Virus record (IMG/VR): IMGVR_UViG_3300046517_002960
Span: 96,001 to 160,000 of that record
DNA from: a virus
DNA length: 64,000 nt
Strand: one strand, 5' to 3'
In this document: positions 30,008 through 63,972 of the stretch, one piece after another
Position numbering within the stretch: the stretch's first letter is position 1
Layout: every line of letters begins with the position of its first letter
Position numbers and translations under genes: made by a program
The notes under the pieces: generated by a model
What the model was told of the DNA's origin: nothing
The model's database searches: none
Seen by the model: only the letters and a program-made list of their open reading frames with translations

Positions 30008-30191
30008 GTATCCACACCTTTCCCTGCCTGCGCAGAGATGCCGAGGCCAGCCAAGCTGGTAACAGCCGTTAGACCGGGCACCGGACTCCGCGGAACGTGA
30101 GTAACGGAGCCGGCTCCGCCATCCGTGCAGACCCTGGACCGGGGGCAGCTACGGGGCCACGGCAGCTATCAGGAGTAACGATAACGCAGTC

Positions 30192-53562: not shown

Positions 53563-53961
53563 ATGCCGACAAGAGACTGGTGGGCGACCGAGTGGGATCG
53601 TTCAGCTTACGACCGGCAGCGGTACGAAGCAGCGAAACAGCAGCTCATCGCCCTGCTAGGCGGTAAATGTGCTAGATGCGGAACAACTGAAAACCTCCAG
53701 TTCGACCACGTAAATCGTGAACTCAAGGACTTTGCGATTACGGGCCGGTGGAACCGCAGCCAGGCTGAACTGGAAGCGGAACTAGCGAAGTGCCAGCTAC
53801 TTTGCCAGCCTCACCATCTGGAGAAGACCCGGCAAGAGATCGGTAACGAACACGGAGGCGGTAAAACAGGGATCAGGAAGTGCAAATGCGAACTCTGTCG
53901 GAACCGCAGAAGCGAACACATGATCGAATATCGGCGTGAGCGTAAGAAGCAAACTACATAG
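53563..53961 (+). CDS. HNH endonuclease
   Basis: CARCG..LQFDHVN..KCQLLCQPHH. Confidence 0.88.
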   Translation: MPTRDWWATEWDRSAYDRQRYEAAKQQLIALLGGKCARCGTTENLQFDHVNRELKDFAITGRWNRSQAELEAELAKCQLLCQPHHLEKTRQEIGNEHGGGKTGIRKCKCELCRNRRSEHMIEYRRERKKQTT

Positions 53962-54031
53962 GAGTGACCCACCGGTTCGGGAACCGCTCTCCAAAAGCGG
54001 TAAAAACAGCGTTCGACTCGCTGCACTCCTG
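53960..54031 (+). tRNA. tRNA-Trp(CCA), atypical D arm
   Basis: AGGAGTG/CACTCCT; loop CT-CCA-AA; GTTCGAC. Confidence 0.8.
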
Positions 54032-54065
54032 CGACCGTCAGCCAAGGCGAGAGCCGCGGCAGGCG

Positions 54066-54097
54066 AATGTCACCGACATTTGAGAACTCCATAGCGT
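54066..54097 (+). promoter_or_regulatory. rrn-type boxB hairpin plus boxA antitermination site
   Basis: AATGTC-ACC-GACATT followed by TTGAGAACTCCATAGCG. Confidence 0.6.
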
Positions 54098-54256
54098 GAG
54101 CACCACGACGGGGGCGCCATCCCCCGTCACCTGGTGCGGTCCCCAGGCGCGATCAGCGGGCGAGTCGCCCCCGTGCCATGGCACCGCACCAATCCGTGCT
54201 GACCTGGCCGGGCCGGTTGTTGCTAGACGGCCCGGCCAGGTACGGCACGATCCGAT

Positions 54257-54329
54257 GGGGCTGTAGCTCAGCTGGGAGAGCGTCTGCGTGGCACGCAGAA
54301 GGCCAGGGGTTCAAGTCCCCTTAGCTCCA
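54257..54329 (+). tRNA. tRNA-Ala(GGC)
   Basis: G3:U70; loop GT-GGC-AC. Confidence 0.9.
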
Positions 54330-54423
54330 CGCGGAGAGATCAGGGTGCAAGGTAGCGCGCCGTCGATGGAGGGCGGCGATGCTCCTGGGCAGCGGCCTGG
54401 CCGCGGACCACCCTTGCAGGCAC

Positions 54424-54496
54424 GGGGCTAGGGCGCGGCTGGTAGCGCAACTCGTTCGCACTGAGAAGGTGAGGGGTTCGAATCCCCTTAGCTCCA
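54424..54496 (+). tRNA. tRNA-Ala(CGC)
   Basis: G3:U70; loop TT-CGC-AC. Confidence 0.85.
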
Positions 54497-54500
54497 CAAT

Positions 54501-54571
54501 CCAGGGAGATCCGGGGATCGCGTCCCGGCAGGGGTCCTGGTGCCCCTGTAGCTCAAGTGCAGAGCGCCTGG
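54501..54571 (+). ncRNA. circularly permuted tRNA-like element 1
   Basis: CCAGG, T-like arm, closed acceptor CAGGGGT/GCCCCTG, D arm GCTC/GAGC, CCTGG. Confidence 0.6.
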
Positions 54572-54578
54572 AGTACAA

Positions 54579-54650
54579 CGGGACCGAGGAAGGCGGAAAT
54601 CCGCCTCGTTCGGGGCGAGGAGAAGCCGGGTTCAACTCCCGGGGTCCCGA
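54579..54650 (+). tRNA. tRNA-Pro(CGG)
   Basis: C1:G72, A73; loop TT-CGG-GG. Confidence 0.85.
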
Positions 54651-54666
54651 CTATGCTTTCGATTTA

Positions 54667-54741
54667 CGGGCTGTAGCTCAGTTTGGTCAGAGCATCCGGC
54701 TGGGGGCCGGGAGGCCGCCGTTTCAAATACGGCCAGCCCGA
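54667..54741 (+). tRNA. tRNA-Pro(GGG)
   Basis: Loop CT-GGG-GG; U53:A61 in place of G:C. Confidence 0.88.
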
Positions 54742-54744
54742 CGA

Positions 54745-54816
54745 GGAGGAAGACGCGGTTCGAATCCGCCTGGCGGCTGAGAATGCCAACGGTAGCTCAA
54801 TGGTAGAGCACCCTCC
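54745..54816 (+). ncRNA. circularly permuted tRNA-like element 2
   Basis: GGAGG, GCGG-TTCGAAT-CCGC, closed imperfect acceptor, TAGCTCAATGGTAGAGCA, CCTCC. Confidence 0.65.
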
Positions 54817-54819
54817 GTA

Positions 54820-54892
54820 CGGGGCGTAGCGCAGTTGGCCGCGCGCCTGATTTGGGATCAGGAGGACGTCAGTTCGAGCCTGGCCGCCCCGA
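54820..54892 (+). tRNA. tRNA-Pro(TGG)
   Basis: Loop TT-TGG-GA. Confidence 0.9.
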
Positions 54893-54900
54893 CTGCACGA

Positions 54901-54975
54901 GGTCACCTAGCTGAGACGGATTAGCGGCTGCCTGAAAAGCAGCAGAGGCAGGGTCGCTACCTGCGGTGACCACCA
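54901..54975 (+). tRNA. tRNA-Phe(GAA), atypical T loop
   Basis: Loop CT-GAA-AA; T loop GTCGCTA; encoded CCA. Confidence 0.82.
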
Positions 54976-55173
54976 TGGCATGACGGCGGATGGGCGCACG
55001 GGCAAACCGGGTCAGCCATCTTCCGCCTGGCCAGGCGAGTAGCGCTCCGCCTGGTAAGCCAGGCTGCTGCAGCGGCCCGGTCTCATGCCGCCCGGAGACG
55101 GGCCTGGTCACACCTGCGGTCAGCCTCGCAAGGGCGCCTGCCGGTCCCTGCTATCAGGTGGTCTCCGGGACTC

Positions 55174-55246
55174 GCGGATGAGTCCCAAACGGAAGGGTGC
55201 CGGCCCTCCAAGCCGGCTGCTGCGGGTTCGAGTCCCGTCATCCGCT
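55174..55246 (+). tRNA. tRNA-Gly(TCC)
   Basis: Loop CC-TCC-AA; U73. Confidence 0.88.
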
Positions 55247-55345
55247 CACGTGGGCTGCCACCGCCTCCCTACTAGGCAGCAGCTGGCCCGGCATACGCGG
55301 AGTGACCCCAGCCGGGGAATAACTGGTCACCAGGGGAGGCACCTC

Positions 55346-55417
55346 AGTCCGGTAGCTCAGCGGCAGAGCGGCGGGCTCTTAACCCGCGCGGCCTCGGTTC
55401 GATCCCGAGTCGGACTA
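55346..55417 (+). tRNA. tRNA-Lys(CTT)
   Basis: Loop CT-CTT-AA. Confidence 0.9.
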
Positions 55418-55605
55418 CGCAATGGGGGGCTTGTACTGCGGTACTGGCCTTAAACGGTGTCCCGGCTCGGCAATACGCGCGTGTTGCCCTGCACCTGGAG
55501 CGCCCCGCCGTGCCCTGTGCAGGGGCACGAGAACCCGCAGGGACCGTGCGTCAGCTGCGGGCGCCAACGGCTGGCTCGCACGGCCGGCCGGCGGCACTGC
55601 ACGAC

Positions 55606-55693
55606 GGGCGGGTGGCGCAGCAGGATGACGCACCGGATTCAAGTCCCGGCGTCCGTAAGGACATTGAGGGTTCAACTCCCTCCTCGCCCACCA
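55606..55693 (+). tRNA. tRNA-Leu(CAA)
   Basis: Long variable arm; loop TT-CAA-GT; CCA. Confidence 0.88.
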
Positions 55694-55718
55694 TTCTCCG
55701 GTCAGCCGGAGAATTCCA

Positions 55719-55793
55719 TGCGGTATGGGGGAACTGGCAGACCCGCCGGGCTCTGAACCCGGAGTTTTCCTGGTTCGAAGCCAGGTACCGCAG
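55719..55793 (+). tRNA. tRNA-Gln(CTG)
   Basis: U1:A72; loop CT-CTG-AA. Confidence 0.9.
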
Positions 55794-55890
55794 CTGGAGT
55801 TGCTGGATAGCGCATGGGCAAGGCGCTTAGAGCTGGCCAGCTACCCGTTCGATTCGGGAACGGCAACTCCGCACAAGGTGTCCGGCGATT

Positions 55891-55936
55891 TCGCGTAGGA
55901 GCCGTCCAGCCTTTAACTGGATCGGGGCAACGCGAG
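55891..55936 (+). ncRNA. armless hairpin carrying a Lys(UUU)-type anticodon stem-loop
   Basis: TCGCGT/ACGCGA outer stem; TCCAG-CCTTTAA-CTGGA. Confidence 0.45.
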
Positions 55937-55940
55937 CAGT

Positions 55941-56015
55941 GCCCCGGTAGCTCAGGTCGGCCAGAGCGACGGCTTCGTAACCCGTGGGTCCCCAGTTCGA
56001 TTCTGGGTCGGGGCT
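55941..56015 (+). tRNA. tRNA-Thr(CGT)
   Basis: Loop TT-CGT-AA. Confidence 0.87.
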
Positions 56016-56088
56016 CTGTGCCGGTGCTGGCCTCAATAAGCCGGGCCTTCGGGTCACGCGCCCAACCGGGCTGGTACCGGCACTTCAC

Positions 56089-56174
56089 GTCCGGGTGATG
56101 GAATCGGAAGACGTGCTAGCTTGAGGAGCTGGTGCCCCGGAAGGGGCGTGCGGGTTCAAGTCCCGCCTCGGACA
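56089..56174 (+). tRNA. tRNA-Leu(GAG)
   Basis: Long variable arm; loop TT-GAG-GA. Confidence 0.9.
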
Positions 56175-56176
56175 CA

Positions 56177-56253
56177 GGGGAAGCAGTAGCTTAACGGACA
56201 GAGCACGGCTGATCACCGACTGGTGAGGGGTTCGAGTCCCTTCCTGCTCCCCC
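56177..56253 (+). ncRNA. non-canonical tRNA-like RNA with GAT loop
   Basis: About 9-bp bulged acceptor, 3-bp anticodon stem CGG-CTGATCA-CCG, 6-bp T stem with TTCGAGT. Confidence 0.55.
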
Positions 56254-56257
56254 GTTC

Positions 56258-56332
56258 GCCGGCCTAGCTCATCGCAGGCAGAGCGTCCGCCTTGTAAGCG
56301 GAGGGTGGCCGGTTTGAGCCCGGCGGCCGGCT
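56258..56332 (+). tRNA. tRNA-Thr(TGT)
   Basis: Loop CT-TGT-AA; T loop TTTGAGC. Confidence 0.88.
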
Positions 56333-56336
56333 CCGG

Positions 56337-56409
56337 TGGGGACTGGGGTAACTGGCAGCCCGCCGGCCTTTGAAGCCGCGTAGTGCCCGTCCGAATCGGG
56401 CGTCCCCAG
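56337..56409 (+). tRNA. tRNA-Gln(TTG)
   Basis: U1:A72; loop CT-TTG-AA; T loop TCCGAAT. Confidence 0.85.
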
Positions 56410-56418
56410 CAATAACAC

Positions 56419-56492
56419 GCCCCGGTAGCTCAGCCGGTAGATGCGTCGGCATGGTAAGCCGAAGGTCCGCGGTTCAAATCCGCGTCGGGGCT
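56419..56492 (+). tRNA. tRNA-Thr(GGT)
   Basis: Loop AT-GGT-AA. Confidence 0.87.
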
Positions 56493-56493
56493 C

Positions 56494-56839
56494 GAGCCGG
56501 CCGGACGGCCGCGGTACCTGCACGTCAGGTACTGAGGAAAGTCCGGGCTCCAACGGGCAGGACGGTTGTTAACGGCAACCCGGGGCAACCCGCGGGAAAG
56601 CGTCACAGAAAGCAGACCGCCCCGGCGACGGGGTAAGGGTGAAACGGCGGTGTAAGAGACCACCAGCGGACCGGGTGACCGGCCCGGCTCGGCAAGCCCC
56701 GTCCGGAGCAAGATCGCAAGGCCGAGGGCGGCCCGCCCGCTGACGCCTGGTGGATCGCACGAGCTCGCCGGCGACGGCAGGCCTAGATGGATGGCCGTCC
56801 CCCTGCGGCGGGGACAGAACCCGGCTTACAGGCCGGCTC
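56494..56839 (+). ncRNA. rnpB: RNase P RNA (bacterial type A)
   Basis: P1 GAGCCGGCC/GGCCGGCTC; GAGGAAAGTCC and AGAACCCGGCTTA P4 signatures; ACAGAAA, GGGTGAAA, GGTGTAAGAG, GAGCAAG. Confidence 0.95.
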
Positions 56840-56905
56840 AATGCCCGCTCCCCGGAGCGGATGTGCGGCGTAAGACCCGGCCGGCCGCGCGGCCCGGGCA
56901 GTCAT

Positions 56906-56978
56906 GCGGACGTGGCGCAGCTGGTAGCGCACGTGCTTGCCAAGCATGAGGTCGCGGGTTCAAATCCCGTCGTCCGCT
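56906..56978 (+). tRNA. tRNA-Gly(GCC)
   Basis: Loop TT-GCC-AA. Confidence 0.92.
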
Positions 56979-57050
56979 CTGAGATCACGCGGGATACTGG
57001 AGTGGCCCTGTCTGAACCGCATCCGCGAACAGCGATCGCCGTGATCTCGC

Positions 57051-57134
57051 GCCCCGCTGGCGAAGCTGGAAGACGCGCACGGTTCAGGACCGTGTGTCCG
57101 TGAGGACGGGAGGGTTCAAATCCCTCGTGGGGCA
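57051..57134 (+). tRNA. tRNA-Leu(CAG)
   Basis: Long variable arm; loop TT-CAG-GA. Confidence 0.92.
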
Positions 57135-57139
57135 CTTCA

Positions 57140-57230
57140 GGAGGGTTGGCCCGGAGCTGGCGTACTGGGACCGCACTGCTAATGCGGCAGTCTGGAGACA
57201 GGCTCGCGAGTTCGATTCTCGCACCTTCCG
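57140..57230 (+). tRNA. tRNA-Ser(GCT)
   Basis: Long variable arm; loop CT-GCT-AA; G73. Confidence 0.9.
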
Positions 57231-57386
57231 CGAGCAGGACAGGCTCTCCCCGCTGGCGGGCAGGTTACCCGCAGGGAGAGCCGGCCGGCGGCGGTAATCG
57301 GCCACCCCACCTGCCCTAGACGCTCTCCGGAATCCGCACCGGGAAGCGCCAAGCCCGGCGTCCCGGGCACTGCAGATTCTACCCCT

Positions 57387-57477
57387 GGAGGGTTCGCCTA
57401 GTGGCCTATGGCGCCGGCCCGGAAAGCCGGTTGGGACGAAAGTACCCTCGCGAGTTCGACTCTCGCACCCTCCGCCA
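57387..57477 (+). tRNA. tRNA-Ser(GGA)
   Basis: Loop CC-GGA-AA; CCA. Confidence 0.88.
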
Positions 57478-57512
57478 GCCTGGCCGTCCGGAGAATGGCG
57501 GCTGGGCCTGCT

Positions 57513-57599
57513 GGAGGATTCGCCTAGCGGCCAGGGCAGCCGATTTGAAACCGGCCAGGGGTCTTGCAGCCCTCGCGAGTTCGAGTCTCGCATCCTCCG
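57513..57599 (+). tRNA. tRNA-Ser(TGA)
   Basis: Loop TT-TGA-AA; G73. Confidence 0.9.
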
Positions 57600-57603
57600 C
57601 CCG

Positions 57604-57691
57604 GGAGGGTTCGCCTAGTGGCCTATGGCGCCGGCTTCGAAACCCGGTTGGGACGAAAGTACCCTCGCGAGTTCGACTCTCGCACCCTCCG
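57604..57691 (+). tRNA. tRNA-Ser(CGA)
   Basis: Loop TT-CGA-AA; body matches Ser(GGA). Confidence 0.9.
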
Positions 57692-57713
57692 CTTCACACC
57701 GTGCTTCACACAT

Positions 57714-57791
57714 GGGCCGGCAGCGTAGCCCGGTTCTCGCAGCTGGCTGATAACCAGTTTGGCGGAGGTTCAAATCCTCCCCGGCCCACCA
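57714..57791 (+). tRNA. tRNA-Ile(GAT)
   Basis: Loop CT-GAT-AA; CCA. Confidence 0.88.
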
Positions 57792-57792
57792 T

Positions 57793-57869
57793 GGCGAGAT
57801 AGCTCAGGCTGGCAGAGCGCCGGACTCATACCCCGGAGGTCGGGATCTCGGTATTCCCTCTCGCTACCA
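57793..57869 (+). tRNA. tRNA(CAT), elongator Met or Ile2, atypical T arm
   Basis: Loop CT-CAT-AC; T loop lacks TTC; CCA. Confidence 0.75.
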
Positions 57870-57948
57870 CGGCCCGTAGTTCAGCCTGGCTTAGAACGGC
57901 ACCCTTATGAAGTGTGCGTCAGGGGTTCAAATCCCCTCGGGCCCACCA
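57870..57948 (+). tRNA. tRNA-Ile(TAT)
   Basis: Loop CT-TAT-GA; C1xC72; CCA. Confidence 0.8.
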
Positions 57949-57949
57949 T

Positions 57950-58525
57950 TCAGGAAGCACCGGCTAGCGGCACCTGCCGGGCGTTCCAGGCGCTGACGGC
58001 GGACAGCGTGAACCCGTCCGTGATCTCCCCGGCAGCGATCATCGCGGTGAGCCCGGAAAAGGTCAGCCACCGGATCTCGGTGATCTCCTCGGTGTCGGCC
58101 GGCACGGCCTGCATGGCCGCGGCACCTACCCGGGCCGCGTACATGTGCACCGCGGTCCCGAGGTGCGCGGAGTCCGGATGGACGCAGCCCAGGAATACCA
58201 GGTCCAGGGCCGCGGCGCCGATCTCCTCGATCAGCTCGGCGCGGGCGGTGGTCTCAGGGCAGGGGCCGTGCGCGTAGCCGCGGGGGAAGCCCCATTCCCA
58301 TTCCTGGGTGGCGTAACGCCAGGTCCGGACCAGGGCGGTATGCTCGCCGGTCACCGGCATGACGACCACGCCGGGATGGCCGCTCCCGGAGATGATGCGG
58401 TAGTAGCGGCCCTGCCGTCCGGAGGAGAACCGGACGTGATCATCAAATACGGTGACGAACCGGTTCCGGTAGACGATCTCCTCGGCGATTCTCTCGATCG
58501 GCGGCGCGCTGGCAGGTGCAGTCAT
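57950..58525 (-). CDS. Nudix hydrolase (NudF-like)
   Basis: WGFPRG..ETTARAELIEEIG Nudix box. Confidence 0.88.
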   Translation of the reverse strand: MTAPASAPPIERIAEEIVYRNRFVTVFDDHVRFSSGRQGRYYRIISGSGHPGVVVMPVTGEHTALVRTWRYATQEWEWGFPRGYAHGPCPETTARAELIEEIGAAALDLVFLGCVHPDSAHLGTAVHMYAARVGAAAMQAVPADTEEITEIRWLTFSGLTAMIAAGEITDGFTLSAVSAWNARQVPLAGAS

Positions 58526-58603
58526 GATCTTCCGTTCCCGCTCCCTGCCCCTGACAACGTGTCACAGCGAAGATACGTTCAGTGAGTAGCCTTATGTAAG
58601 CAG

Positions 58604-58675
58604 GGTCCGCTAGCTCAACGGCAGAGCATCCGACTTTTAATCGGCTGGTTCAGGGTTCGAGCCCCTGGTGGACCA
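58604..58675 (+). tRNA. tRNA-Lys(TTT)
   Basis: Loop CT-TTT-AA. Confidence 0.9.
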
Positions 58676-58676
58676 C

Positions 58677-58880
58677 TCAGCCCCAGGACACCATCTGCGG
58701 GGCCGGGTGCTTGGTCCAGGTGTCGGCGAGCGCCGGGTGCGCGTGCTTGGTCCAGGTGTCGGCGACGGTCGCGTGATGCGGAGCGGGCGGGGTGCCCCAG
58801 GACACCATCGCGGCACCGGAGCCCGTGGCAACGGCGGCTGCGAGGACGAGAGCGGCGATCCTGGCCTTGGCGGATTTCAT
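58677..58880 (-). CDS. 67-aa secreted peptide with internal repeats
   Basis: Signal-like N-terminus; MVSWG twice, ADTWTKH twice; GGAAGG RBS and own promoter. Confidence 0.7.
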   Translation of the reverse strand: MKSAKARIAALVLAAAVATGSGAAMVSWGTPPAPHHATVADTWTKHAHPALADTWTKHPAPQMVSWG

Positions 58881-58918
58881 AGCGTTACCTTCCCCGTTAC
58901 TAGGTGTTCTCATAACTG

Positions 58919-58946
58919 AGCGTACAGACCGGTCACAGCGTGTCAA
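58919..58946 (-). promoter_or_regulatory. promoter for the repeat peptide gene
   Basis: TTGACA-N16-TACGCT on the minus strand. Confidence 0.55.
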
Positions 58947-58950
58947 TAGC

Positions 58951-58979
58951 TTGCGCGGCACTTTCCGTAGCCGTAAGGT
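58951..58979 (+). promoter_or_regulatory. promoter for the second tRNA block
   Basis: TTGCGC-N17-TAAGGT, 8 nt before tRNA-Arg(TCT). Confidence 0.6.
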
Positions 58980-58987
58980 GACAGGAT

Positions 58988-59060
58988 GCGCCTGTAGCTC
59001 AAGGGGATAGAGTCTCGCCTTCTAAGCGAGGGGATGGGGGTTCGATGCCTCCCGGGCGCG
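58988..59060 (+). tRNA. tRNA-Arg(TCT)
   Basis: Loop CT-TCT-AA. Confidence 0.88.
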
Positions 59061-59191
59061 CTGGGGACCCCGGCCTGCGAGGCGGCCCGTGAGCCGTCGC
59101 CGGCAGATCCGGCACCGGGGTCCTCAACTAGTCTCAGCTGAGATATCGCGTAGTAGCCTCTTGAGACATCGGTCATTGCTATACTGAAAAC

Positions 59192-59686
59192 ATGACCATG
59201 CCCACGCCGCACTTCTGCGACTGTGGATGTGGTGAGAAAACAGCTGTTGCCCCGAGGAATAATACGAAGCGGGGATACGTCAAGGGCTTGTCGTTCCGGT
59301 TCGTCGGACGGCATCATGCCTGGAAAGGCGACGAGGCCAGCTATCGTGTCTTGCACACAGCTCTGAACCTGCACTACCCGAAGTCAGGCGTGTGCGAGGA
59401 GTGCGGCGCGGAAGCAGAGACCGAGTACTCACTGATTCATGGCCGTCAAGTGTCTCGGCGGCGCGAGGATTACAGGGAGCTCTGCAAACCCTGTCACCAT
59501 GGTTACGACACGGGCGGGGAGCGCAGCCTGAACGCTAAGCTGACGGAAGCGAACGTGCGTGATCTCAGAGTGCGCTTCGATGACGGGCAAGGCGAGCCTA
59601 TTGAAGTTCTTGCTCGCGAGTACGGCGTTTCTCCCGCGGCGGCTTACCGGGCTGCGACGCGCAAGTCCTGGCGTCACGTCGCTTGA
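59192..59686 (+). CDS. free-standing homing-endonuclease-like protein (Zn knuckle, HNH-like core, HTH), leaderless
   Basis: CDCGCG, YRVLH, CEECG, LCKPCH, KLTEANVRDLR; TGC-TATACT 7 nt before ATG. Confidence 0.8.
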   Translation: MTMPTPHFCDCGCGEKTAVAPRNNTKRGYVKGLSFRFVGRHHAWKGDEASYRVLHTALNLHYPKSGVCEECGAEAETEYSLIHGRQVSRRREDYRELCKPCHHGYDTGGERSLNAKLTEANVRDLRVRFDDGQGEPIEVLAREYGVSPAAAYRAATRKSWRHVA

Positions 59687-59722
59687 CGGATGTACCTGAA
59701 GATTGCTTCTGAACGCTTACAT

Positions 59723-59800
59723 GGTCCTGCAGGCCAGCCAGGAGTGGCCGTCTGCCCCTCAAGCAGGAGATCGCGGGTTCGAATCCCGCCAGGACTACCA
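59723..59800 (+). tRNA. tRNA-Glu(CTC)
   Basis: Loop CC-CTC-AA; CCA. Confidence 0.88.
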
Positions 59801-59801
59801 T

Positions 59802-59876
59802 GGCCCCATAGTGCTAGCGGTCCAGGCCGCCTGCCTTTCAAGCAGGAGATCACGGGTTCGAATCCCGTTGGGGCTA
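59802..59876 (+). tRNA. tRNA-Glu(TTC)
   Basis: Loop CT-TTC-AA. Confidence 0.88.
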
Positions 59877-59890
59877 CGGTGTAAATGCGA

Positions 59891-59962
59891 CGCGGAGGGT
59901 GCTAGGTCAACCAGCCAGGCTCATAACCTCGGCAAACGCGGGTTCAAATCCCGCCTCCGCTA
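59891..59962 (+). tRNA. initiator-like tRNA-fMet(CAT)
   Basis: C1xU72 mismatch, CGCGG 5' end; loop CT-CAT-AA; only two of three G:C pairs. Confidence 0.8.
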
Positions 59963-59966
59963 CTAA

Positions 59967-60037
59967 GGTGCCCTGGAGCGTTTCCGGCTGACTACCGGTC
60001 GTCGCCCCGGGTTCGTCGCCGGGATCAGGGCACCCCA
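59967..60037 (+). ncRNA. D-armless tRNA-Val(GAC)-like RNA with 9-bp acceptor
   Basis: GGTGCCCTG/CAGGGCACC then CCA; CCGG-CTGACTA-CCGG; T-like arm. Confidence 0.55.
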
Positions 60038-60038
60038 G

Positions 60039-60110
60039 TCCCCCATAGCTCAATGGCAGTAGCGCCCGGCCGTTAACCGGTGGATCTTGGTTCGAGTCCA
60101 GGTGGGGGAG
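60039..60110 (+). tRNA. tRNA-Asn(GTT)
   Basis: U1:A72, G73; loop CC-GTT-AA. Confidence 0.88.
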
Positions 60111-60123
60111 CGCAGAAACACAA

Positions 60124-60197
60124 GGTGGCGTAACTCAGCAGGTCAGAGTGCTGGACTGTCTATCCGGAAGTCGCGGGTTCGAATCCCGTCGTCACCG
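60124..60197 (+). tRNA. tRNA-Asp(GTC)
   Basis: Loop CT-GTC-TA; G73. Confidence 0.9.
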
Positions 60198-60310
60198 CTA
60201 GCACCCAGTCCCTGGTGCTTGCCCGGAAGGTCTTCCGCACACTGCGCGCGGCAGCGGAAGCGCCTGGCCGGGGAACCCGCGACAGCGTAACAGCGGCGGA
60301 TGGGACACAC

Positions 60311-60384
60311 GGTCGCTTAGCTCAGTTCGGGAGAGCGTCGTCCTGACGCGACGAAGGCCACTGGTTCAATCCCAGTAGCGACCA
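60311..60384 (+). tRNA. tRNA-Val(GAC)
   Basis: Loop CT-GAC-GC. Confidence 0.9.
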
Positions 60385-60398
60385 CGCAGTACCAGCAA

Positions 60399-60474
60399 GT
60401 CCCCGTAGCTCAACGGATAGAGCTGCTGCCTACGGAGCAGTGCGTTGCAGGTTCGAGTCCTGCCGGGGATGCCA
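60399..60474 (+). tRNA. tRNA-Arg(ACG)
   Basis: Loop CT-ACG-GA; CCA. Confidence 0.92.
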
Positions 60475-60540
60475 GCGGAGAGGTATCGGCAGTACCGTAA
60501 AGCCAGGTCACGTGCCCGAGGACCTGCGCCTCTCCGTCAA

Positions 60541-60616
60541 GGGCGGTTAGCTCAGCGGGAGAGCGCTGGGTCCACACCCCGGGACATTTGCGCCGGTTCG
60601 ATCCCGGCACCGCCTA
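60541..60616 (+). tRNA. tRNA-Val(CAC)
   Basis: Loop TC-CAC-AC; 9-nt variable region. Confidence 0.85.
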
Positions 60617-60618
60617 CT

Positions 60619-60690
60619 GTGGCCGTAGCTCAATGGTCAGAGCAACGGGCCGTGAACCCGAATATGCGCGTTCAATTCGCGTCGGCCACC
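60619..60690 (+). tRNA. tRNA-His(GTG)
   Basis: Loop CC-GTG-AA; C73; the -1 base is T, not G. Confidence 0.85.
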
Positions 60691-60692
60691 CC

Positions 60693-60776
60693 GGCAGGTT
60701 ACCCAAGCGGACAAAGGGAGCTGTCTGTAAAACAGTCGGCATTACGCCTGCGCTGGTTCGAACCCAGCACCTGCCA
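60693..60776 (+). tRNA. tRNA-Tyr(GTA)
   Basis: Loop CT-GTA-AA; type II variable arm. Confidence 0.92.
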
Positions 60777-60777
60777 C

Positions 60778-61197
60778 ATGAACACGAAAACGAGAATCGG
60801 CCTGGACTACTGGCAGGTCTGCAGCCACTGGCCGTACTTCGGCGAGCTGGCGGCGGCCCTGCGGGCGGCAGGCCATGAGGTGCACGTCATCTCGGCGGTC
60901 GGCCGGAAATCCGCCGGCACCGTCGCGCCCGGGCTAGCTGAGCTCGGTATCGCCGTTGACGGCGTGCACGAGCGGCTGTTCCGCCATCCGCGGGAGTCGC
61001 CGCAGCTGAAGCTGGCCGCGTGCCGGGAACTGGGCATCGGGGTCTTCTACGACGACCGGCAGGACGTGACCGACCTGCTGAACGCGAACGGGATCCTGGC
61101 CCTGCGGGTGCCGCGGCGCCAGGCCGGGCTGTCGGACACTGAGGGAGAACGGCGGGGCTCGCCGCCGCGGGGTGATCGTGACCCGGCAGCCGTCTAA
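60778..61197 (+). CDS. HAD-superfamily phosphatase-like protein
   Basis: IGLDYWQ (degenerate motif I), HVISAV (II), K (III), FYDDRQD (IV). Confidence 0.7.
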   Translation: MNTKTRIGLDYWQVCSHWPYFGELAAALRAAGHEVHVISAVGRKSAGTVAPGLAELGIAVDGVHERLFRHPRESPQLKLAACRELGIGVFYDDRQDVTDLLNANGILALRVPRRQAGLSDTEGERRGSPPRGDRDPAAV

Positions 61198-61262
61198 GGT
61201 CGTGACCCGGCTGAACGAGAAAGACCCGCCAGCCTCAGGGCACAGCGGGCCGCAGTAAGCAG

Positions 61263-61336
61263 GACCCCATAGCTCAGCGGATAGAGCACCGCCCTCCGGA
61301 GGCGGGTTGTCGCAGGTTCGAATCCTGCTGGGGCCA
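61263..61336 (+). tRNA. tRNA-Arg(CCG)
   Basis: Loop CT-CCG-GA. Confidence 0.88.
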
Positions 61337-61395
61337 CTGGCTGGCAGGTGAGCAGGCTGACACCGCCTTCGGGCTCAGCCCCCTGCCGGCCGTAC

Positions 61396-61471
61396 CGCCG
61401 AGTGACCGAGCTGGCTAGGTGAACGCCTGCAAAGCGTTTTGACACGGGTTCAAGTCCCGTCTCGGCGTCCA
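61396..61471 (+). tRNA. tRNA-Cys(GCA)
   Basis: Loop CT-GCA-AA; U73; CCA. Confidence 0.9.
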
Positions 61472-61472
61472 C

Positions 61473-61546
61473 GACCCTGTAGCTCAGCCGGATAGAGCAG
61501 GCGCCCCCTAAGCGCTATGTCGCGGGTTCGAATCCCCCCAGGGCCA
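61473..61546 (+). tRNA. tRNA-Arg(CCT)
   Basis: Loop CC-CCT-AA. Confidence 0.85.
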
Positions 61547-61560
61547 CGTATGATGAGGAC

Positions 61561-61629
61561 GGCACGGGCCGGAGGCAGTCGGTTATCTTCGAACAAGTCA
61601 AGCCGGTTACCGCACACATGCCCGCTGCC
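61561..61629 (+). ncRNA. Y RNA 1 (minimal scaffold)
   Basis: GGCACGGGCCGGAGG..CGGTTATC..CCGGTT..ACATGCCCGCTGCC. Confidence 0.7.
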
Positions 61630-61661
61630 CTTCCCCTGGTGCTCACGCTATGAAAGAACGC

Positions 61662-61774
61662 GAGACGGGCCGGAAGGAAATCGGTTACCGGAAAACGGGA
61701 CTCACACTCCTGCAGAGGGATTCGAAGCCCTCACCCCCGCAAGGGGAACCGGTTCCCGGCAACACGCCCGTCTC
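61662..61774 (+). ncRNA. Y RNA 2 (Val CAC anticodon arm, T-like arm, closed acceptor)
   Basis: 9-bp terminal stem; CGGGA-CTCACAC-TCCTG; GAGGG-ATTCGAAG-CCCTC; CCCC-GCAA-GGGG. Confidence 0.78.
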
Positions 61775-61775
61775 T

Positions 61776-61927
61776 CAGCTTGAGCCCGGCGGGCCGGACG
61801 TGATGCCGGTTATCGAAGGTTCGACTCCTCCAGGCCCCACTCTCACGGGGCCTCCCGTTCGGCGGGATCCCTCCCTGACACGGAGGGAAGCCCGGTGTCC
61901 ACTCACATGCCCGCCGGCCTCAAGCTG
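61776..61927 (+). ncRNA. Y RNA 3 (T arm, closed acceptor, D-like arm, Val GAC anticodon arm)
   Basis: GAAGG-TTCGACT-CCTCC; AGGCCCC/GGGGCCT; CCCG/CGGG; CCCTCC-CTGACAC-GGAGGG. Confidence 0.8.
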
Positions 61928-61934
61928 CAAGCCC

Positions 61935-62017
61935 CTGGCGGGCCGGATGAGGGTCGGTTATCACCAGACTCCTAATCTGGCGCGATAGCGCTCCGGTCCC
62001 CGTAACACGCCCGCCAG
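61935..62017 (+). ncRNA. Y RNA 4 (Arg CCU anticodon stem-loop)
   Basis: CTGGCGGGC/GCCCGCCAG; CCAGA-CTCCTAA-TCTGG. Confidence 0.78.
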
Positions 62018-62033
62018 CCACAATTTCATAGAC

Positions 62034-62173
62034 CTGACGGGCCGGACGAGAATCGGTTACCGCCTTGGGAGCGCGTGGTTGCAGGTTCGAGTCCTGTCAG
62101 CCCTCCGGAAGGGGGGCTGTAGCTCAATTGGCAGAGCGCGTAAACGGCCGGTTCACAAGCACACGCCCGTCAG
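62034..62173 (+). ncRNA. yrlA: YrlA-type Y RNA 5
   Basis: GCAGG-TTCGAGT-CCTGT, acceptor closed by GGAA loop, TAGCTCAATTGGCAGAGC D arm, terminal CTGACGGGC/GCCCGTCAG. Confidence 0.92.
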
Positions 62174-62179
62174 CTAACT

Positions 62180-62294
62180 GAAGACAAGCCCCCGCGGGCC
62201 GGAAGCGGAGCCGGTTATCGCCAACCATCCAACACTGGTACCGCGGCCACGTGCCGCACCGGTTCCCGTCAACATGCCCGCGGGGCTTGCCTTC
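62180..62294 (+). ncRNA. Y RNA 6 (two-hairpin module)
   Basis: Long terminal stem with GCCGGAAG; CGGTTATC; ACCA/TGGT and GCGGC/GCCGC hairpins. Confidence 0.72.
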
Positions 62295-62319
62295 ACAGAT
62301 CAGGAGGAGGAACACGATC

Positions 62320-63972
62320 ATGACCAACGACGCGCTGACGCAGATCCGGACCCGGGGCCGGGCCACGCCGCAGTCCGAGCAGGCCCACCCGGCGCAGATC
62401 CGGAACGACGCAGGCGGCTGGGCGTTCCAGGCTTCCGACGAGACCCGGGTGCACCGGTTCCTGACCATCGGCACCACGGGCGGCACCTTCTACACCGACG
62501 AGCGCAAGGCGACGCGGGACAACGGCGAGCTGATCATCGAGTTCGCCCGGGCCAACGCGTCCCGGCTGGTCCAGATGGCCACTGAGGTGTCCGTCGCGGG
62601 CCGCGCGCCGCGCAACCAGCAGGCGATCCTGGCCCTGATGGCCGCCATGGCCCTGGGGGACACTGAGGGCCGGCAGGCCGCGGAGCGTGCCTTCACCGAC
62701 GTCGTGCGGACCGGCACGCACCTGTTCACGGCGGCCAGGTACGCCGAGCAGTTCCGCGGCTGGGGCCGTATCGCCCGGCGCGCGTTCGCCCGGTGGTACC
62801 TGGACAAGGACGCCGAGCCGCTGTCCTACCAGCTGGTCAAGTACCGGCAGCGGGACGGCTGGACGCACCGTGACGTGCTCCGTTCCGCGCACTCCACCAG
62901 CGGCTGCGACGCCGCCCACGCGCAGCTGTTCGACTGGCTGTGCGGCCGGGAGGCGGACGGCGAGCGGCCGAAGTGGATCGCCGCGTACGAGCGCGCCCGG
63001 GAGATCGAGCGCGGCTCCGAGCCGGCCGGCGCCAGGACGGCTGCCTACGTGCGCCTCATCGAGGAGTACCCGGGCATCCCGTGGGAGGCGCTGCCGGACG
63101 AGGCCACCTCGCAGGCAGACGTCATGCGGGCGCTGATCGAGGCCGGCATGCCGGTCACGGCGCTGATCCGGAACCTGCCGAAGCTGACCCGGCTCGGCGT
63201 GATCGCCCCGATGAGCACGCACCTGCGGCTCGTCACGGAGCGGCTGACCAACGCTGAGCTGCTGCGCAAGGGCCGGGTCCACCCGGTTTCCCTGATGGTC
63301 GCAGCCAAGGTGTACGCCTCCGGCCGGTCCGAGCCGCGCCCGAACAGGCCGGTAGTCACGTGGACCCCGGTGCCGCAGGTCTCCGACGCGCTGACCGGCG
63401 CGTTCTACGCCGCCTTCCCGGCGGTGGAGCCGGCCGGCAAGAGGACCATGGTCAACCTGGACATCTCGGGTTCCATGACCAGCTCGGCCGCGGGCTACTG
63501 CGTCTCGGCGCGGGAGGTCGTGGCGGGCATGGCCCTGGTGACCATGAACACCGAGCCGGCCTGGGGCGTGTACGGCTTCAGCACCCAGTTCATGCCGCTG
63601 CAGCTGTCCCCGGGCATGCGGCTGGATGAGGCGATGCGGTACATGTCGCGACTGCCGTACGGCGGCACCGACGCCTCGCTGCCGATGCAGTGGGCGGCCC
63701 AGACCCGTACCGAGGTGGATGTCTTCCAGATCTCCACCGACTACGAGACCTGGGCGGGCTCCATGCACCCGCACGAGGCGCTGGAGAACTACCGCCAGAA
63801 GATGGGCATCAACGCCCGGATGCAGATGATCGCGGTCGCCCCGAACGAGTACTCGTTCTGGCCGCACTCCGCTCCGGGGTCCATCGCTGCCGACCTGGGC
63901 GTCCTGGACGTCAGCGGTTTCGACACCGACGTCCCGGTGCTCCTGGCCAACCACGCCCGGGGCGACATCTGA
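62320..63972 (+). CDS. rsr: Ro60/Rsr TROVE-domain RNA-binding protein with vWA domain
   Basis: NDAGGWAF, RFLTIGTTGGTFY, KYRQRDGWTHRDVLR, ALIRNL, RVHP, LDISGSM, GGTDASLPM; AGGAGG RBS before ATG 62320. Confidence 0.97.
   Translation: MTNDALTQIRTRGRATPQSEQAHPAQIRNDAGGWAFQASDETRVHRFLTIGTTGGTFYTDERKATRDNGELIIEFARANASRLVQMATEVSVAGRAPRNQQAILALMAAMALGDTEGRQAAERAFTDVVRTGTHLFTAARYAEQFRGWGRIARRAFARWYLDKDAEPLSYQLVKYRQRDGWTHRDVLRSAHSTSGCDAAHAQLFDWLCGREADGERPKWIAAYERAREIERGSEPAGARTAAYVRLIEEYPGIPWEALPDEATSQADVMRALIEAGMPVTALIRNLPKLTRLGVIAPMSTHLRLVTERLTNAELLRKGRVHPVSLMVAAKVYASGRSEPRPNRPVVTWTPVPQVSDALTGAFYAAFPAVEPAGKRTMVNLDISGSMTSSAAGYCVSAREVVAGMALVTMNTEPAWGVYGFSTQFMPLQLSPGMRLDEAMRYMSRLPYGGTDASLPMQWAAQTRTEVDVFQISTDYETWAGSMHPHEALENYRQKMGINARMQMIAVAPNEYSFWPHSAPGSIAADLGVLDVSGFDTDVPVLLANHARGDI

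What the first reader, a model, noticed from the sequence alone, without database searches (positions are those of the whole stretch)
61561..63972. Ro60/Rsr with six Y RNAs: one scaffold, tRNA modules opened at different arms
Seen: six tandem units, each with a GC terminal helix, GGGCCGGA-N-G on the 5' strand, ACA(C/U)GCCCG on the 3' strand and a second helix CGGUU/CCGGU, with base changes that keep pairing. Their modules differ: unit 5 is the YrlA layout (T arm, closed acceptor, D arm; opened at the anticodon arm); unit 3 is T arm, closed acceptor, D-like hairpin and an intact CU-GAC-AC anticodon arm (opened at the variable loop); unit 2 is a CU-CAC-AC anticodon arm, T-like arm and GNRA-closed acceptor (opened at the D arm); unit 4 shows only a CU-CCU-AA anticodon arm; units 1 and 6 are minimal. 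Known: bacterial and some phage Ro60 genes sit beside Y RNAs, YrlA mimics tRNA, and the GNCGAAN(0-1)G-like motif marks the Ro60 site. Inference: a modular kit of uncharged tRNA mimics on Ro60, as decoys for host anticodon nucleases (Val and Arg) or tethers for different RNA enzymes. I am not aware of anticodon-bearing Y RNAs permuted this way being described.
Basis: partly seen in the sequence, partly recalled or inferred. Interest (0 to 1): 0.95.

Follow-up and report, generated by a model that had tools for sequence, protein, structure and literature searches.

The report
Six Y RNAs before phage Ro60
A 190-kb soil actinophage carries six small RNA genes in a row in front of its Ro60 gene; all share one Ro60-docking stem, and each shows a different piece of tRNA, including look-alikes of the valine and arginine anticodon arms, which published Ro60 partner RNAs are not known to carry.

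Summary
Six same-strand units (61561-62284) share a Y-RNA-type stem with compensating base changes, and end 36 nt before a full-length Ro60 gene (62320-63972).

What each unit carries:
- Unit 5 is YrlA-like: T arm, closed acceptor, canonical D arm.
- Unit 3 is a whole tRNA-Val-like cloverleaf in rotated order, opened at the variable region. After re-rotation in silico ARAGORN calls tRNA-Val(GAC); it calls none of 1200 shuffles.
- Unit 4 has a 5-bp/7-nt hairpin found in 12 related loci. Its stem is nearly invariant. Its loop is CU-NNN-RA with NNN = CCU, CUU, UCU or GCG, and G37 appears only with GCG, as in this phage's own Arg tRNAs.
- Unit 2's anticodon-like loop is not kept in relatives.
- Unit 6 is not minimal: it carries a conserved CCAUYCAAC loop.

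Tandem arrays of 2-8 such units are common beside Ro60 in uncultured actinophage contigs. Anticodon-like loops are enriched in their cargo. Earlier notes of this scan describe similar arrays in other phages. I found none in the papers I could search.

Ro60 binding, expression and the decoy or tether function are untested. I class this as a new variant of a known kind.

The parts
61561..61629 (+). Y RNA unit 1: the scaffold with a small apical hairpin. It lies upstream of the conserved 15-mer.
   Evidence: Motif scan; helix-based limits; weak match to the nematode sRNA family RF01656, E 0.054.
61638..61652 (+). Conserved 15-mer GGTGCTCACGCTATG. Candidate promoter or processing signal of the array.
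   Evidence: The CTCACGC core lies 14-28 nt upstream of the first unit in 10 of 15 clade loci, and between units 1 and 2 here and in L006. The 13-mer core has only 2 exact copies in the 190-kb genome.
61662..61774 (+). Y RNA unit 2. Cargo: anticodon-like hairpin 61696-61712 (loop CUCACAC), T-like arm 61715-61732 (8-nt loop), GCAA hairpin 61735-61746.
   Evidence: Fold z = -3.0; coordinates. Relatives keep the T arm and the GNRA hairpin but not the 7-nt loop.
61786..61917 (+). Y RNA unit 3: a rotated tRNA-Val-like cloverleaf. T arm 61815-61831, loop-closed 7-bp acceptor 61832-61853, D-position hairpin 61854-61866, anticodon arm 61869-61887 (CUGACAC).
   Evidence: After re-rotation ARAGORN calls tRNA-Val(gac); 0 of 1200 shuffles are called; nothing is called in the native order. 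Relatives carry UAC or CAC.
61935..62017 (+). Y RNA unit 4 ('R-type'): anticodon-like hairpin 61964-61980 (CCAGA-CUCCUAA-UCUGG) and GAUA-capped hairpin 61980-61991.
   Evidence: Alignment A3 of 11 loci. Pair counts: 95.5% paired, 7 pairs changed on both sides, 0 of 500 shuffles reach this. Model R1 scores it 101.7 bits and finds a 12th member, L226.
62034..62173 (+). Y RNA unit 5, YrlA-like: T arm 62080-62097, GGAA-closed acceptor 62098-62119, canonical D arm 62120-62138.
   Evidence: Rfam YrlA RF02553 at 62073-62143: 38.7 bits, E 1e-6, model positions 23-87 only, below the gathering score of 69. Present in 13 of 14 clade relatives.
62191..62284 (+). Y RNA unit 6: hairpin 62224-62239 presenting CCAUCCAAC, and a second hairpin 62243-62257.
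   Evidence: Alignment A6: the loop motif CCAUYCAAC is kept on stems that vary in 10 units of relatives.
62302..62311 (+). Shine-Dalgarno-like AGGAGGAGGA of Ro60.
   Evidence: Read from the sequence. No terminator-like site on the + strand between the array and the gene.
62320..63972 (+). Ro60 (Rsr) gene, 550 aa: TROVE and vWA domains with a DxSxS (MIDAS-type) motif.
   Evidence: Pfam TROVE 131.8 bits and vWA_Ro60 159.1 bits. PDB matches: 2nvo D. radiodurans Rsr E 2.5e-94; 1yvp Xenopus Ro60 E 5e-89.

Best explanation
The region is a phage Ro60 cassette: six Y RNA genes and the Ro60 gene, probably made as one transcript and cut into separate RNAs.

Each RNA has two parts. The first is a constant stem made from its 5' and 3' ends. 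It holds GCCGGA-N-G on one strand and ACA(C/U)GCCCG on the other, and it most likely docks on the outer face of the Ro60 ring, as in animal and bacterial Y RNAs. The second is a variable head built from tRNA parts.

The heads offer tRNA surfaces to proteins that read tRNAs:
- an elbow plus acceptor (unit 5, YrlA-like);
- a whole valine-tRNA shape with its acceptor end closed by a loop (unit 3);
- bare anticodon stem-loops of Arg/Lys type (unit 4) and Val type (unit 2);
- a conserved CCAUYCAAC loop (unit 6).

The array would therefore give one Ro60 protein a set of adaptors or baits, each aimed at a different tRNA-binding partner. Candidates are processing or decay enzymes such as PNPase and RNase P, anticodon-reading enzymes, and host tRNA-cutting defence nucleases.

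Shown here: the anatomy, its conservation, and the tRNA-like pattern of variation.
Inferred: Ro60 docking, processing, and the identity of the partners.
For: 1. A true Ro60 gene directly follows the array.

2. The scaffold recurs upstream of Ro60 in viral, metagenome and actinomycete genome loci, always on the Ro60 strand, in arrays of 1-8 units.

3. The stems covary. In the unit 4 class 95.5% of cells are paired, 7 pairs changed on both sides, 0 of 500 shuffles reach this, and slid controls fall to 31-41% paired. The six paralogues have six different complementary outer helices.

4. Unit 5 matches the tRNA-like core of Rfam YrlA.

5. Unit 3 and three relatives are called tRNA-Val by ARAGORN after re-rotation. 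A fourth relative (L006) is called a tRNA with an 8-nt loop, and L216 is not called. None of 1200 shuffles is called. Across the five loci with the Val arm, only position 34 of the 'anticodon' varies (G, U, C), while A35, C36 and A37 stay fixed.

6. In the unit 4 class the stem and the next hairpin are almost invariant, while loop positions 34-37 vary. The loop variants are CUCCUAA, CUCUUAA, CUUCUAA and CUGCGGA. Two of them are identical to this phage's own tRNA-Lys(CUU) and tRNA-Arg(UCU) loops, and G37 goes with G36 as in its tRNA-Arg(ACG/CCG).

7. Across all Ro60-adjacent units, 29 of 96 non-T 5-bp/7-nt hairpins fit YU-NNN-RN, against 5.7% expected from loop composition. Of 26 distinct such loops, 13 equal a real tRNA loop from the same set of loci, against 10.4% expected (p = 5e-7).

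8. Published precedents: YrlA is bound by Rsr, carries tRNA modifications and is cut by RNase P (PMC4201824). Thermus phage phiLo Ro60 with Yrl1/Yrl2 binds host PNPase (PMC12135203). Loss of a Ro60-fold protein of phage Bas63 cripples growth on a host carrying the Ppl defence (PMC11482910).
Against:
- No unit reaches the gathering score of any Rfam Y-RNA family.
- Unit 2's anticodon-like loop is not conserved.
- In unit 3 the D-position hairpin lacks canonical D-loop features. Only a GG in the loop is kept. ARAGORN draws an odd D arm there.
- In unit 4 the fifth stem pair competes with the neighbouring hairpin for one G.
- The anticodon-like stems do not match tRNA stems in five actinomycete genomes that I searched, so they are not plain copies of those tRNAs.
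- The counts treat related sequences as if independent.
- Neighbouring genes gave no RNA-repair or nuclease clue.
Confidence: 0.55

Rival explanations
1. Decoy or sponge. The anticodon-like heads (Val, Arg, Lys) are baits for host anticodon nucleases or other tRNA-targeting defence proteins. They soak up or occupy the enzyme while the phage's own altered tRNAs keep translation going. Ro60 stabilises the bait or hands cut bait to decay or repair.
For: - The loops are exact canonical tRNA loops.
- In the unit 4 class the 'anticodon' switches between Arg and Lys types among close relatives. The Ro60 branches of L219 (GCG) and L217 (CUU) are only 0.03-0.05 long, as might be expected in an arms race.
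- The phage's own tRNAs with the displayed anticodons have odd loops: Arg-CCU has CCCCUAA and Val-CAC has UCCACAC, both with C33, and Val-GAC has G37. This fits the published idea that phage tRNAs escape nucleases through loop changes (PMC10264068).
- A phage Ro60-fold protein counters a defence system (PMC11482910).
Against: - No nuclease target is known for this host, and no cleavage data exist.
- C33 occurs in 7 of 38 phage tRNAs, so the overlap with the displayed anticodons is weak evidence.
- Relatives with a canonical tRNA-Arg(CCU) loop also carry the unit 4 class.
- Ppl, the one defence shown to be countered by a Ro60-fold protein, is proposed by the authors to degrade DNA, not tRNA.
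Confidence: 0.2
2. Relics without their own function. The heads are scraps of tRNA genes picked up by recombination with the adjacent 38-gene tRNA array. Only the Ro60 stem and general stability matter, and the anticodon-like loops are neutral passengers.
For: - The array abuts tRNA genes here and in relatives.
- Heads differ greatly between relatives, and unit 2's loop is replaced by other hairpins.
- Chen et al. 2014 already proposed a tRNA origin for Y RNA modules.
Against: - The unit 4 hairpin pair is nearly invariant across Ro60 lineages down to 51% identity, while the scaffold around it changes freely.
- Variation is confined to positions 34-37 and yields only real tRNA loops.
- The stems are unlike the phage's own tRNA stems.
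Confidence: 0.12
3. Unit 3 is a working permuted or split tRNA-Val gene. RNase P (the phage has its own RNase P RNA) and 3' trimming plus CCA addition would open the acceptor loop, giving a two-piece, chargeable tRNA.
For: - The acceptor has 7 bp and is followed by an A at the discriminator position in all six Val-type relatives. L006 even has ACCAC there.
- M. smegmatis YrlA is cut by RNase P and receives CCA in vivo.
- A phage RNase P RNA lies at 56493-56844.
Against: - A stem of about 20 bp carrying a Ro60 site would sit in the variable-arm position.
- The D arm is non-canonical.
- The phage already encodes tRNA-Val(GAC) and tRNA-Val(CAC).
- No bulge-helix-bulge or circularisation signal was seen.
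Confidence: 0.04
4. The unit 4 loop acts as an anti-Shine-Dalgarno mimic. CUCCU pairs with AGGAG and would regulate Ro60 or other mRNAs; it is not a tRNA mimic.
For: CUCCU, CUCUU and CUUCU can all pair with AGGAG if G-U pairs are allowed. Ro60 has a strong AGGAGGAGGA site 36 nt after the array.
Against: - The CUGCGGA variant cannot pair with AGGAG.
- The 5-bp/7-nt geometry and the link between positions 36 and 37 fit tRNA.
- The Val-type loops have no such complementarity.
Confidence: 0.04

Closest known systems
YrlA / YrlB Y RNAs of Salmonella, Mycobacterium smegmatis and mycobacteriophages (Rfam RF02553; Chen et al. 2014, PMC4201824; Wang et al. 2018, bioRxiv 10.1101/312249)
   Same: Encoded next to Ro60. 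A stem formed by the two RNA ends carries a GNCGAA-type motif. The head mimics the tRNA T arm, acceptor and D arm (unit 5). More than one Y RNA per locus.
   Different: Here there are six units, not two. The motif is GCCGGA-N-G and both strands of the docking helix are conserved. Heads include a full cloverleaf with an anticodon arm opened at the variable region, and bare anticodon-like hairpins. Unit 5 scores 38.7 bits against a gathering score of 69.
Deinococcus radiodurans Yrn1 / Yrn2
   Same: Both strands of the metazoan-type Ro helix are kept. Chen et al. 2014 modelled Yrn1 with T and D arms in a different orientation from YrlA and with a possible 'anticodon arm'.
   Different: The Yrn1 arm has a 6-nt loop and no variable arm, and its D loop was not confirmed. 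Here the loops are canonical 7-nt tRNA loops, conserved across relatives, and one unit passes a tRNA finder after re-rotation.
Thermus phage phiLo Ro60 with Yrl1 and Yrl2 (PMC12135203)
   Same: A phage Ro60 with Y-like RNA genes directly upstream. Binding was shown there, and a ternary complex with host PNPase.
   Different: Two units without described tRNA mimicry, a CGAA motif, and a different phage group.
Animal Y RNAs and nematode stem-bulge RNAs
   Same: Terminal stem with conserved 5' and 3' strands. Units 1 and 2 give weak hits to RF01656 over the stem (E 0.05-0.12). That RF01656 is a stem-bulge RNA family, and that GGUUAUC follows the motif in human Y1/Y4, are from memory.
   Different: Those RNAs have no tRNA-like heads, are made by RNA polymerase III, and are not arranged as tandem arrays before the Ro60 gene.
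Phage tRNAs as counter-defence against anticodon nucleases (PMC10264068, PMC11555353, PMC11464382)
   Same: Phage-encoded RNAs with anticodon loops in a tRNA-rich region. Loop variants point to conflict with tRNA-targeting enzymes.
   Different: Those are decoding tRNAs that replace cut host tRNAs. The units here have no free acceptor end and sit on a Ro60 handle.

Membership tests
Y RNA (Ro60-associated noncoding RNA class) | Gene lies next to a Ro60/Rsr gene, on the same strand | tested here: met
   The array ends 36 nt before the Ro60 start. The same arrangement is seen in the related loci.
Y RNA (Ro60-associated noncoding RNA class) | Stem formed by the 5' and 3' ends, carrying the conserved Ro-binding motif (GNCGAAN0-1G on the 5' strand) | tested here: met
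   All six units have GCCGGA-N-G, one base off the consensus; more distant relatives have CGAA. Stems covary. Weak hits to RF01656.
Y RNA (Ro60-associated noncoding RNA class) | Bound by Ro60 and present as a discrete stable RNA | not testable with these tools
No RNA-protein docking tool was available.
YrlA (Rfam RF02553) | Score at or above the curated gathering score (69 bits) | tested here: not met
   Best match is unit 5 at 38.7 bits, model positions 23-87 only. No other unit matches at E up to 10.
YrlA (Rfam RF02553) | Head in the order T arm, loop-closed acceptor, D arm | tested here: met
   Unit 5 at 62080-62138.
tRNA (RF00005 / ARAGORN) | Cloverleaf in native order with free acceptor ends | tested here: not met
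   No tRNA hit inside 61561-62284 with Rfam or ARAGORN.
tRNA (RF00005 / ARAGORN) | Cloverleaf recognisable after circular re-rotation | tested here: met
   Unit 3 gives tRNA-Val(gac). L082, L206 and L005 give tRNA-Val(tac). None of 1200 shuffles is called.
Permuted tRNA genes of the Cyanidioschyzon type | Processing signals for circularisation, and mature free acceptor ends | not tested
   No bulge-helix-bulge motif was looked for. The acceptor is closed by a 5-9-nt loop, and the chain ends lie in a Ro-type stem.
Ro60 / TROVE protein | TROVE and Ro60-type vWA domains above Pfam cut-offs | tested here: met
   131.8 and 159.1 bits. PDB 2nvo E 2.5e-94.

The most novel reading that the evidence does not exclude
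Phage Ro60 particles carry exchangeable 'anticodon cassettes'. These are Y RNAs that display exact Val, Arg or Lys anticodon stem-loops, or a whole acceptor-capped tRNA-Val shape, as baits for anticodon-reading host proteins such as defence nucleases. The displayed anticodon is swapped between related phages as hosts change. This would be an RNA-decoy arm of phage counter-defence built on Ro60.
Probability: 0.2. Interest if true: 0.85.

Novelty: new variant of a known kind. Interest (0 to 1): 0.62.

Why it matters
Two things about bacterial and phage Y RNAs remain largely open: what their heads bind, and why phages carry Ro60 at all.

This array makes both questions testable. One Ro60 gene comes with six heads that sample different tRNA surfaces. 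Two of these heads show conserved anticodon loops whose three central bases change while the rest of the hairpin stays fixed. That points to partners that read anticodons, such as synthetases, modification enzymes or tRNA-cutting defence nucleases. It also gives defined bait RNAs for pull-downs.

The survey further shows that multi-unit arrays and anticodon-like cargo are common next to Ro60 in uncultured actinophage contigs, and that anticodon-like cargo also turns up beside Ro60 in some actinomycete genomes. Current annotation and Rfam miss all of this.

Tried and rejected
- Rfam at gathering scores found no Y-RNA family in the array.
- Megablast against cultured phages found only weak Ro60 matches.
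- I asked whether the anticodon-like stems copy host tRNAs. Patterns for the Val-type and Arg/Lys-type stem-loops had no match in five actinomycete genomes. A looser pattern gave only chance hits that are not tRNAs.
- A flank-anchored scan of viral contigs for more unit 4 members added only three chance matches inside coding regions.
- RNAalifold on a MAFFT alignment of unit 3 relatives gave a muddled consensus because of indels. I used per-sequence parsing and the re-rotation test instead.
- Pfam scans of ORFs up- and downstream gave nothing related to RNA repair or nucleases.
- Sim et al. 2020 and Burroughs & Aravind 2016 are not held in the library. I could not check what they say about tandem Y RNAs.
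- The reverse-strand control is distorted by reverse-complemented T loops.
Full report
**Setting**

The window is bases 96001-160000 of a 190,216-bp IMG/VR virus record. Earlier notes of this scan call it an uncultured soil actinophage. I did not test that myself, but the closest Ro60 relatives are in soil metagenome contigs, and the closest cellular ones, at no more than 47% identity, are in Nocardia, Mycobacterium and other actinomycetes.

Upstream of the finding lie about 38 tRNA genes (53960-61547) and a class A RNase P RNA.

Yes.

They do not co-occur anywhere else in the window.
- I set the unit limits from the terminal helix: 61561-61629, 61662-61774, 61786-61917, 61935-62017, 62034-62173 and 62191-62284.
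- The inner five pairs (CGGGC/GCCCG) are constant. The outer four differ in every unit and remain complementary.
- Five of the six units fold better than shuffles, with z between -2.7 and -3.6. The minimal unit 1 does not.
- The ORF 62320-63972 is a full Ro60: TROVE plus Ro60-type vWA domains, with E 2.5e-94 to D. radiodurans Rsr and 5e-89 to Xenopus Ro60.
- The gap to the array is 36 nt and holds a strong ribosome-binding site. There is no terminator-like site on this strand.

**Relatives**

I collected Ro60-anchored loci in three ways:
- with the protein and with alignments A1 and A2: 80 viral loci, 80 metagenome loci and 80 species-representative genome loci;
- with a scaffold DNA pattern.

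A helix-aware scan finds the same scaffold upstream of Ro60 on the Ro60 strand:
- 1-4 units in actinomycete genomes;
- up to 6 units in metagenome contigs;
- up to 8 units in viral contigs.

So tandem arrays are common in this lineage. Cultured relatives that I inspected have only one or two unannotated units. In MindFlayer these carry the canonical CGAA motif.

A close clade with Ro60 at least 55% identical (15 loci plus L005, whose contig ends before Ro60) has 3-6 units per array, drawn from a few recurring classes.

**Unit 5**

This is the YrlA class. Its T arm, GGAA-closed acceptor and canonical D arm match model positions 23-87 of Rfam YrlA (38.7 bits, E 1e-6). The whole unit stays below the gathering score of 69, because the stem differs from the model. 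The class is present in 13 of the 14 clade relatives listed.

**Unit 3**

After GGUUAUC the order is:
- a T arm (GAAGG-UUCGACU-CCUCC);
- a 7-bp acceptor closed by an 8-nt loop;
- a short hairpin at the D position;
- an arm CCCUCC-CUGACAC-GGAGGG;
- the return strand of the scaffold.

I cut the head in the acceptor loop and joined it across the scaffold, entirely in a script. ARAGORN then called tRNA-Val(gac) over the full 73 nt. It called tRNA-Val(tac) for the homologues in L082, L206 and L005, and a tRNA with an 8-nt loop for L006. It called none of 1200 dinucleotide shuffles and nothing in the native array.

Among the five loci with this arm the loop is CU-GAC-AC, CU-UAC-AC (three loci) or CU-CAC-AU, the last with a compensated stem. 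Only the wobble position changes, and all three triplets are valine anticodons.

The T arm and acceptor covary across 15 relatives: T arm GAAGG/CCUCC, GAUGG/CCACC, AACAG/CUGCU; acceptor AGGCCCC/GGGGCCU, AGGCGGU/GCUGCCU and others.

The D-position hairpin is not a canonical D arm. Across the clade it keeps only a GG at the 3' side of its loop.

More distant members of this class lack the Val-type arm or have another hairpin there. The full cloverleaf is therefore a subclade feature.

**Unit 4**

The head is CCAGA-CUCCUAA-UCUGG followed at once by a GAUA-capped hairpin. I found this class in 12 loci, with Ro60 identity down to 51%.

On alignment A3 (11 sequences):
- the scaffold helices show 6 pairs changed on both sides;
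- the anticodon-like stem shows one (U-A to A-U);
- the rest of the 31-nt head is invariant, apart from one change in the cap of the second hairpin (GAUA to GUUA in L217);
- the exception is loop positions 34-37.

The twelfth member, L226, has a compensated change in the second hairpin.

The loops are CUCCUAA (5 loci), CUCUUAA (5), CUUCUAA (1) and CUGCGGA (1). For comparison, the phage's own tRNAs have CUCUUAA (Lys-CUU), CUUCUAA (Arg-UCU), CUACGGA (Arg-ACG) and CUCCGGA (Arg-CCG). Each variant is therefore a complete, real tRNA loop, and purine 37 changes together with base 36, as in tRNAs.

On a Ro60 tree the labels are scattered. The near-identical sisters L219 and L217 carry GCG and CUU. The whole unit differs more between these two than its neighbours do, so an exchange of units is as likely as point mutation.

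Caveat: the G at 61980 can either close the fifth pair of the stem or open the next hairpin.

**Unit 2**

The window has CGGGA-CUCACAC-UCCUG, a T-like arm with an 8-nt loop, and a GCAA hairpin. This fits the order anticodon arm, T arm, closed acceptor.

Relatives keep the T arm (canonical 7-nt loops in L006 and L005) and the GNRA hairpin. The first hairpin is something else in them: a stem extended by a UUCG or GCAA hairpin (L206, L216, L005), or a GGAA hairpin (L006). The Val-like loop of unit 2 is thus not corroborated.

**Units 1 and 6**

- Unit 1 is minimal.
- Unit 6 is not. Ten units in relatives share a loop CCAUYCAAC on stems that differ. Its meaning is unknown.

**Is anticodon-like cargo more than chance?**

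- Over all Ro60-adjacent units, 29 of 96 distinct non-T hairpins with a 5-bp stem and 7-nt loop fit YU-NNN-RN. Loop composition predicts 5.7%. Outside the close clade the figure is still 19 of 70.
- Of 26 distinct conforming loops, 13 are identical to an anticodon loop among 311 tRNA genes found in the same loci (Cys, Ile, Phe, Ser, Glu, Gly, Arg, Lys, Val). The expectation is 10.4% (binomial p = 5e-7). Only 1 of 66 non-conforming loops matches.
- These counts ignore relatedness, and three matched loops rest on a single tRNA each. They are supportive, not decisive.

**Signals around the array**

- A 15-mer, GGTGCTCACGCTATG, lies between units 1 and 2. Its CTCACGC core lies 14-28 nt before the first unit in 10 of 15 clade loci.
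- The 13-mer core has only two exact copies in the genome. The other faces away from the start of the tRNA array.
- It may be a promoter or a processing site.

**Mechanism**

Known facts from the literature:
- Y RNAs dock on Ro60 through the end-to-end stem and use the head to recruit partners such as PNPase.
- The Ro60 of phage phiLo with its two Y-like RNAs binds host PNPase.
- Loss of the Ro60-fold protein gp130 cripples phage Bas63 on hosts with the Ppl defence.

On that basis I read this locus as one Ro60 with six adaptor or bait RNAs. The conserved anticodon loops point to partners that read anticodons. I cannot decide here whether these are decay or processing enzymes, synthetases or modification enzymes, or host tRNA-cutting defence nucleases.

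The decoy idea fits three observations: the exact canonical loops, the switching of anticodons, and the odd loops (C33, G37) of the phage's own tRNAs for the same anticodons. But C33 occurs in 7 of 38 phage tRNAs, and relatives do not show the same pairing.

**Novelty**

Already published:
- Y RNAs beside bacterial and phage Ro60;
- tRNA mimicry by YrlA;
- more than one Y RNA per locus;
- a differently oriented tRNA-like model for Yrn1.

I found no paper describing arrays of this size, Y RNAs with canonical anticodon stem-loops, or a full cloverleaf opened at the variable region. Two likely sources could not be read.

Earlier notes of this scan describe similar arrays and 'anticodon-displaying' mimics on Ro60-type handles in other phages. 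The theme therefore recurs within the scan, and this locus is one clear member on a true Ro60.

Verdict: a new variant of a known kind.

Noticed in passing
window 56493-56844 (+): A complete bacterial class A RNase P RNA (261 bits, model 1-367) sits inside the phage tRNA array. It could process the tRNAs, and possibly the acceptor-like hairpins of units 3 and 5.
   Followed up: no
window 53960-61547 (+): Seven of the 38 phage tRNAs called by ARAGORN have C instead of the near-universal U at position 33: Gly-UCC, Ser-GGA, Glu-CUC, Asn-GUU, Val-CAC, His-GUG and Arg-CCU. tRNA-Val(GAC) has G37. ARAGORN and Rfam also disagree on about six tRNA calls.
   Followed up: partly
window 61638-61652 (+) and 54090-54104 (-): The 15-mer GGTGCTCACGCTATG occurs exactly twice in the window, and its 13-mer core has only these two exact copies in the 190-kb genome. 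One copy is within the Y RNA array. The other points away from the start of the tRNA array. The motif is kept upstream of the arrays in relatives. It is a candidate phage promoter or processing site.
   Followed up: partly
window 62224-62239 and alignment A6: Unit 6 and nine related units present a conserved loop CCAUYCAAC on stems that vary. No known motif or pairing partner was identified.
   Followed up: partly
window 62285-62300 and relatives: A short motif CUUCAC follows the last unit, about 20-35 nt before the Ro60 start, in most clade loci. The consensus promoter scan reads TTCACA there as a -35-like hexamer.
   Followed up: no
window 29328-30011 (-): Two adjacent group I intron matches (54.7 and 55.6 bits; gathering score 50).
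   Followed up: no
L382 1913-2100 (Streptomyces phage MindFlayer, MW291014.1): Two unannotated Y-RNA-like units with the canonical CGAA motif (GGUCGAAUG...CGGUUAUC) lie between tRNA-Asp and a hypothetical gene upstream of Ro60 in a cultured phage. This could serve as an experimental system.
   Followed up: partly
L226 1640-2160: Short repeats (GCAGCCGAAG, GATAGCCAACG) recur between the units, and between the array and Ro60, in this metagenome relative.
   Followed up: no
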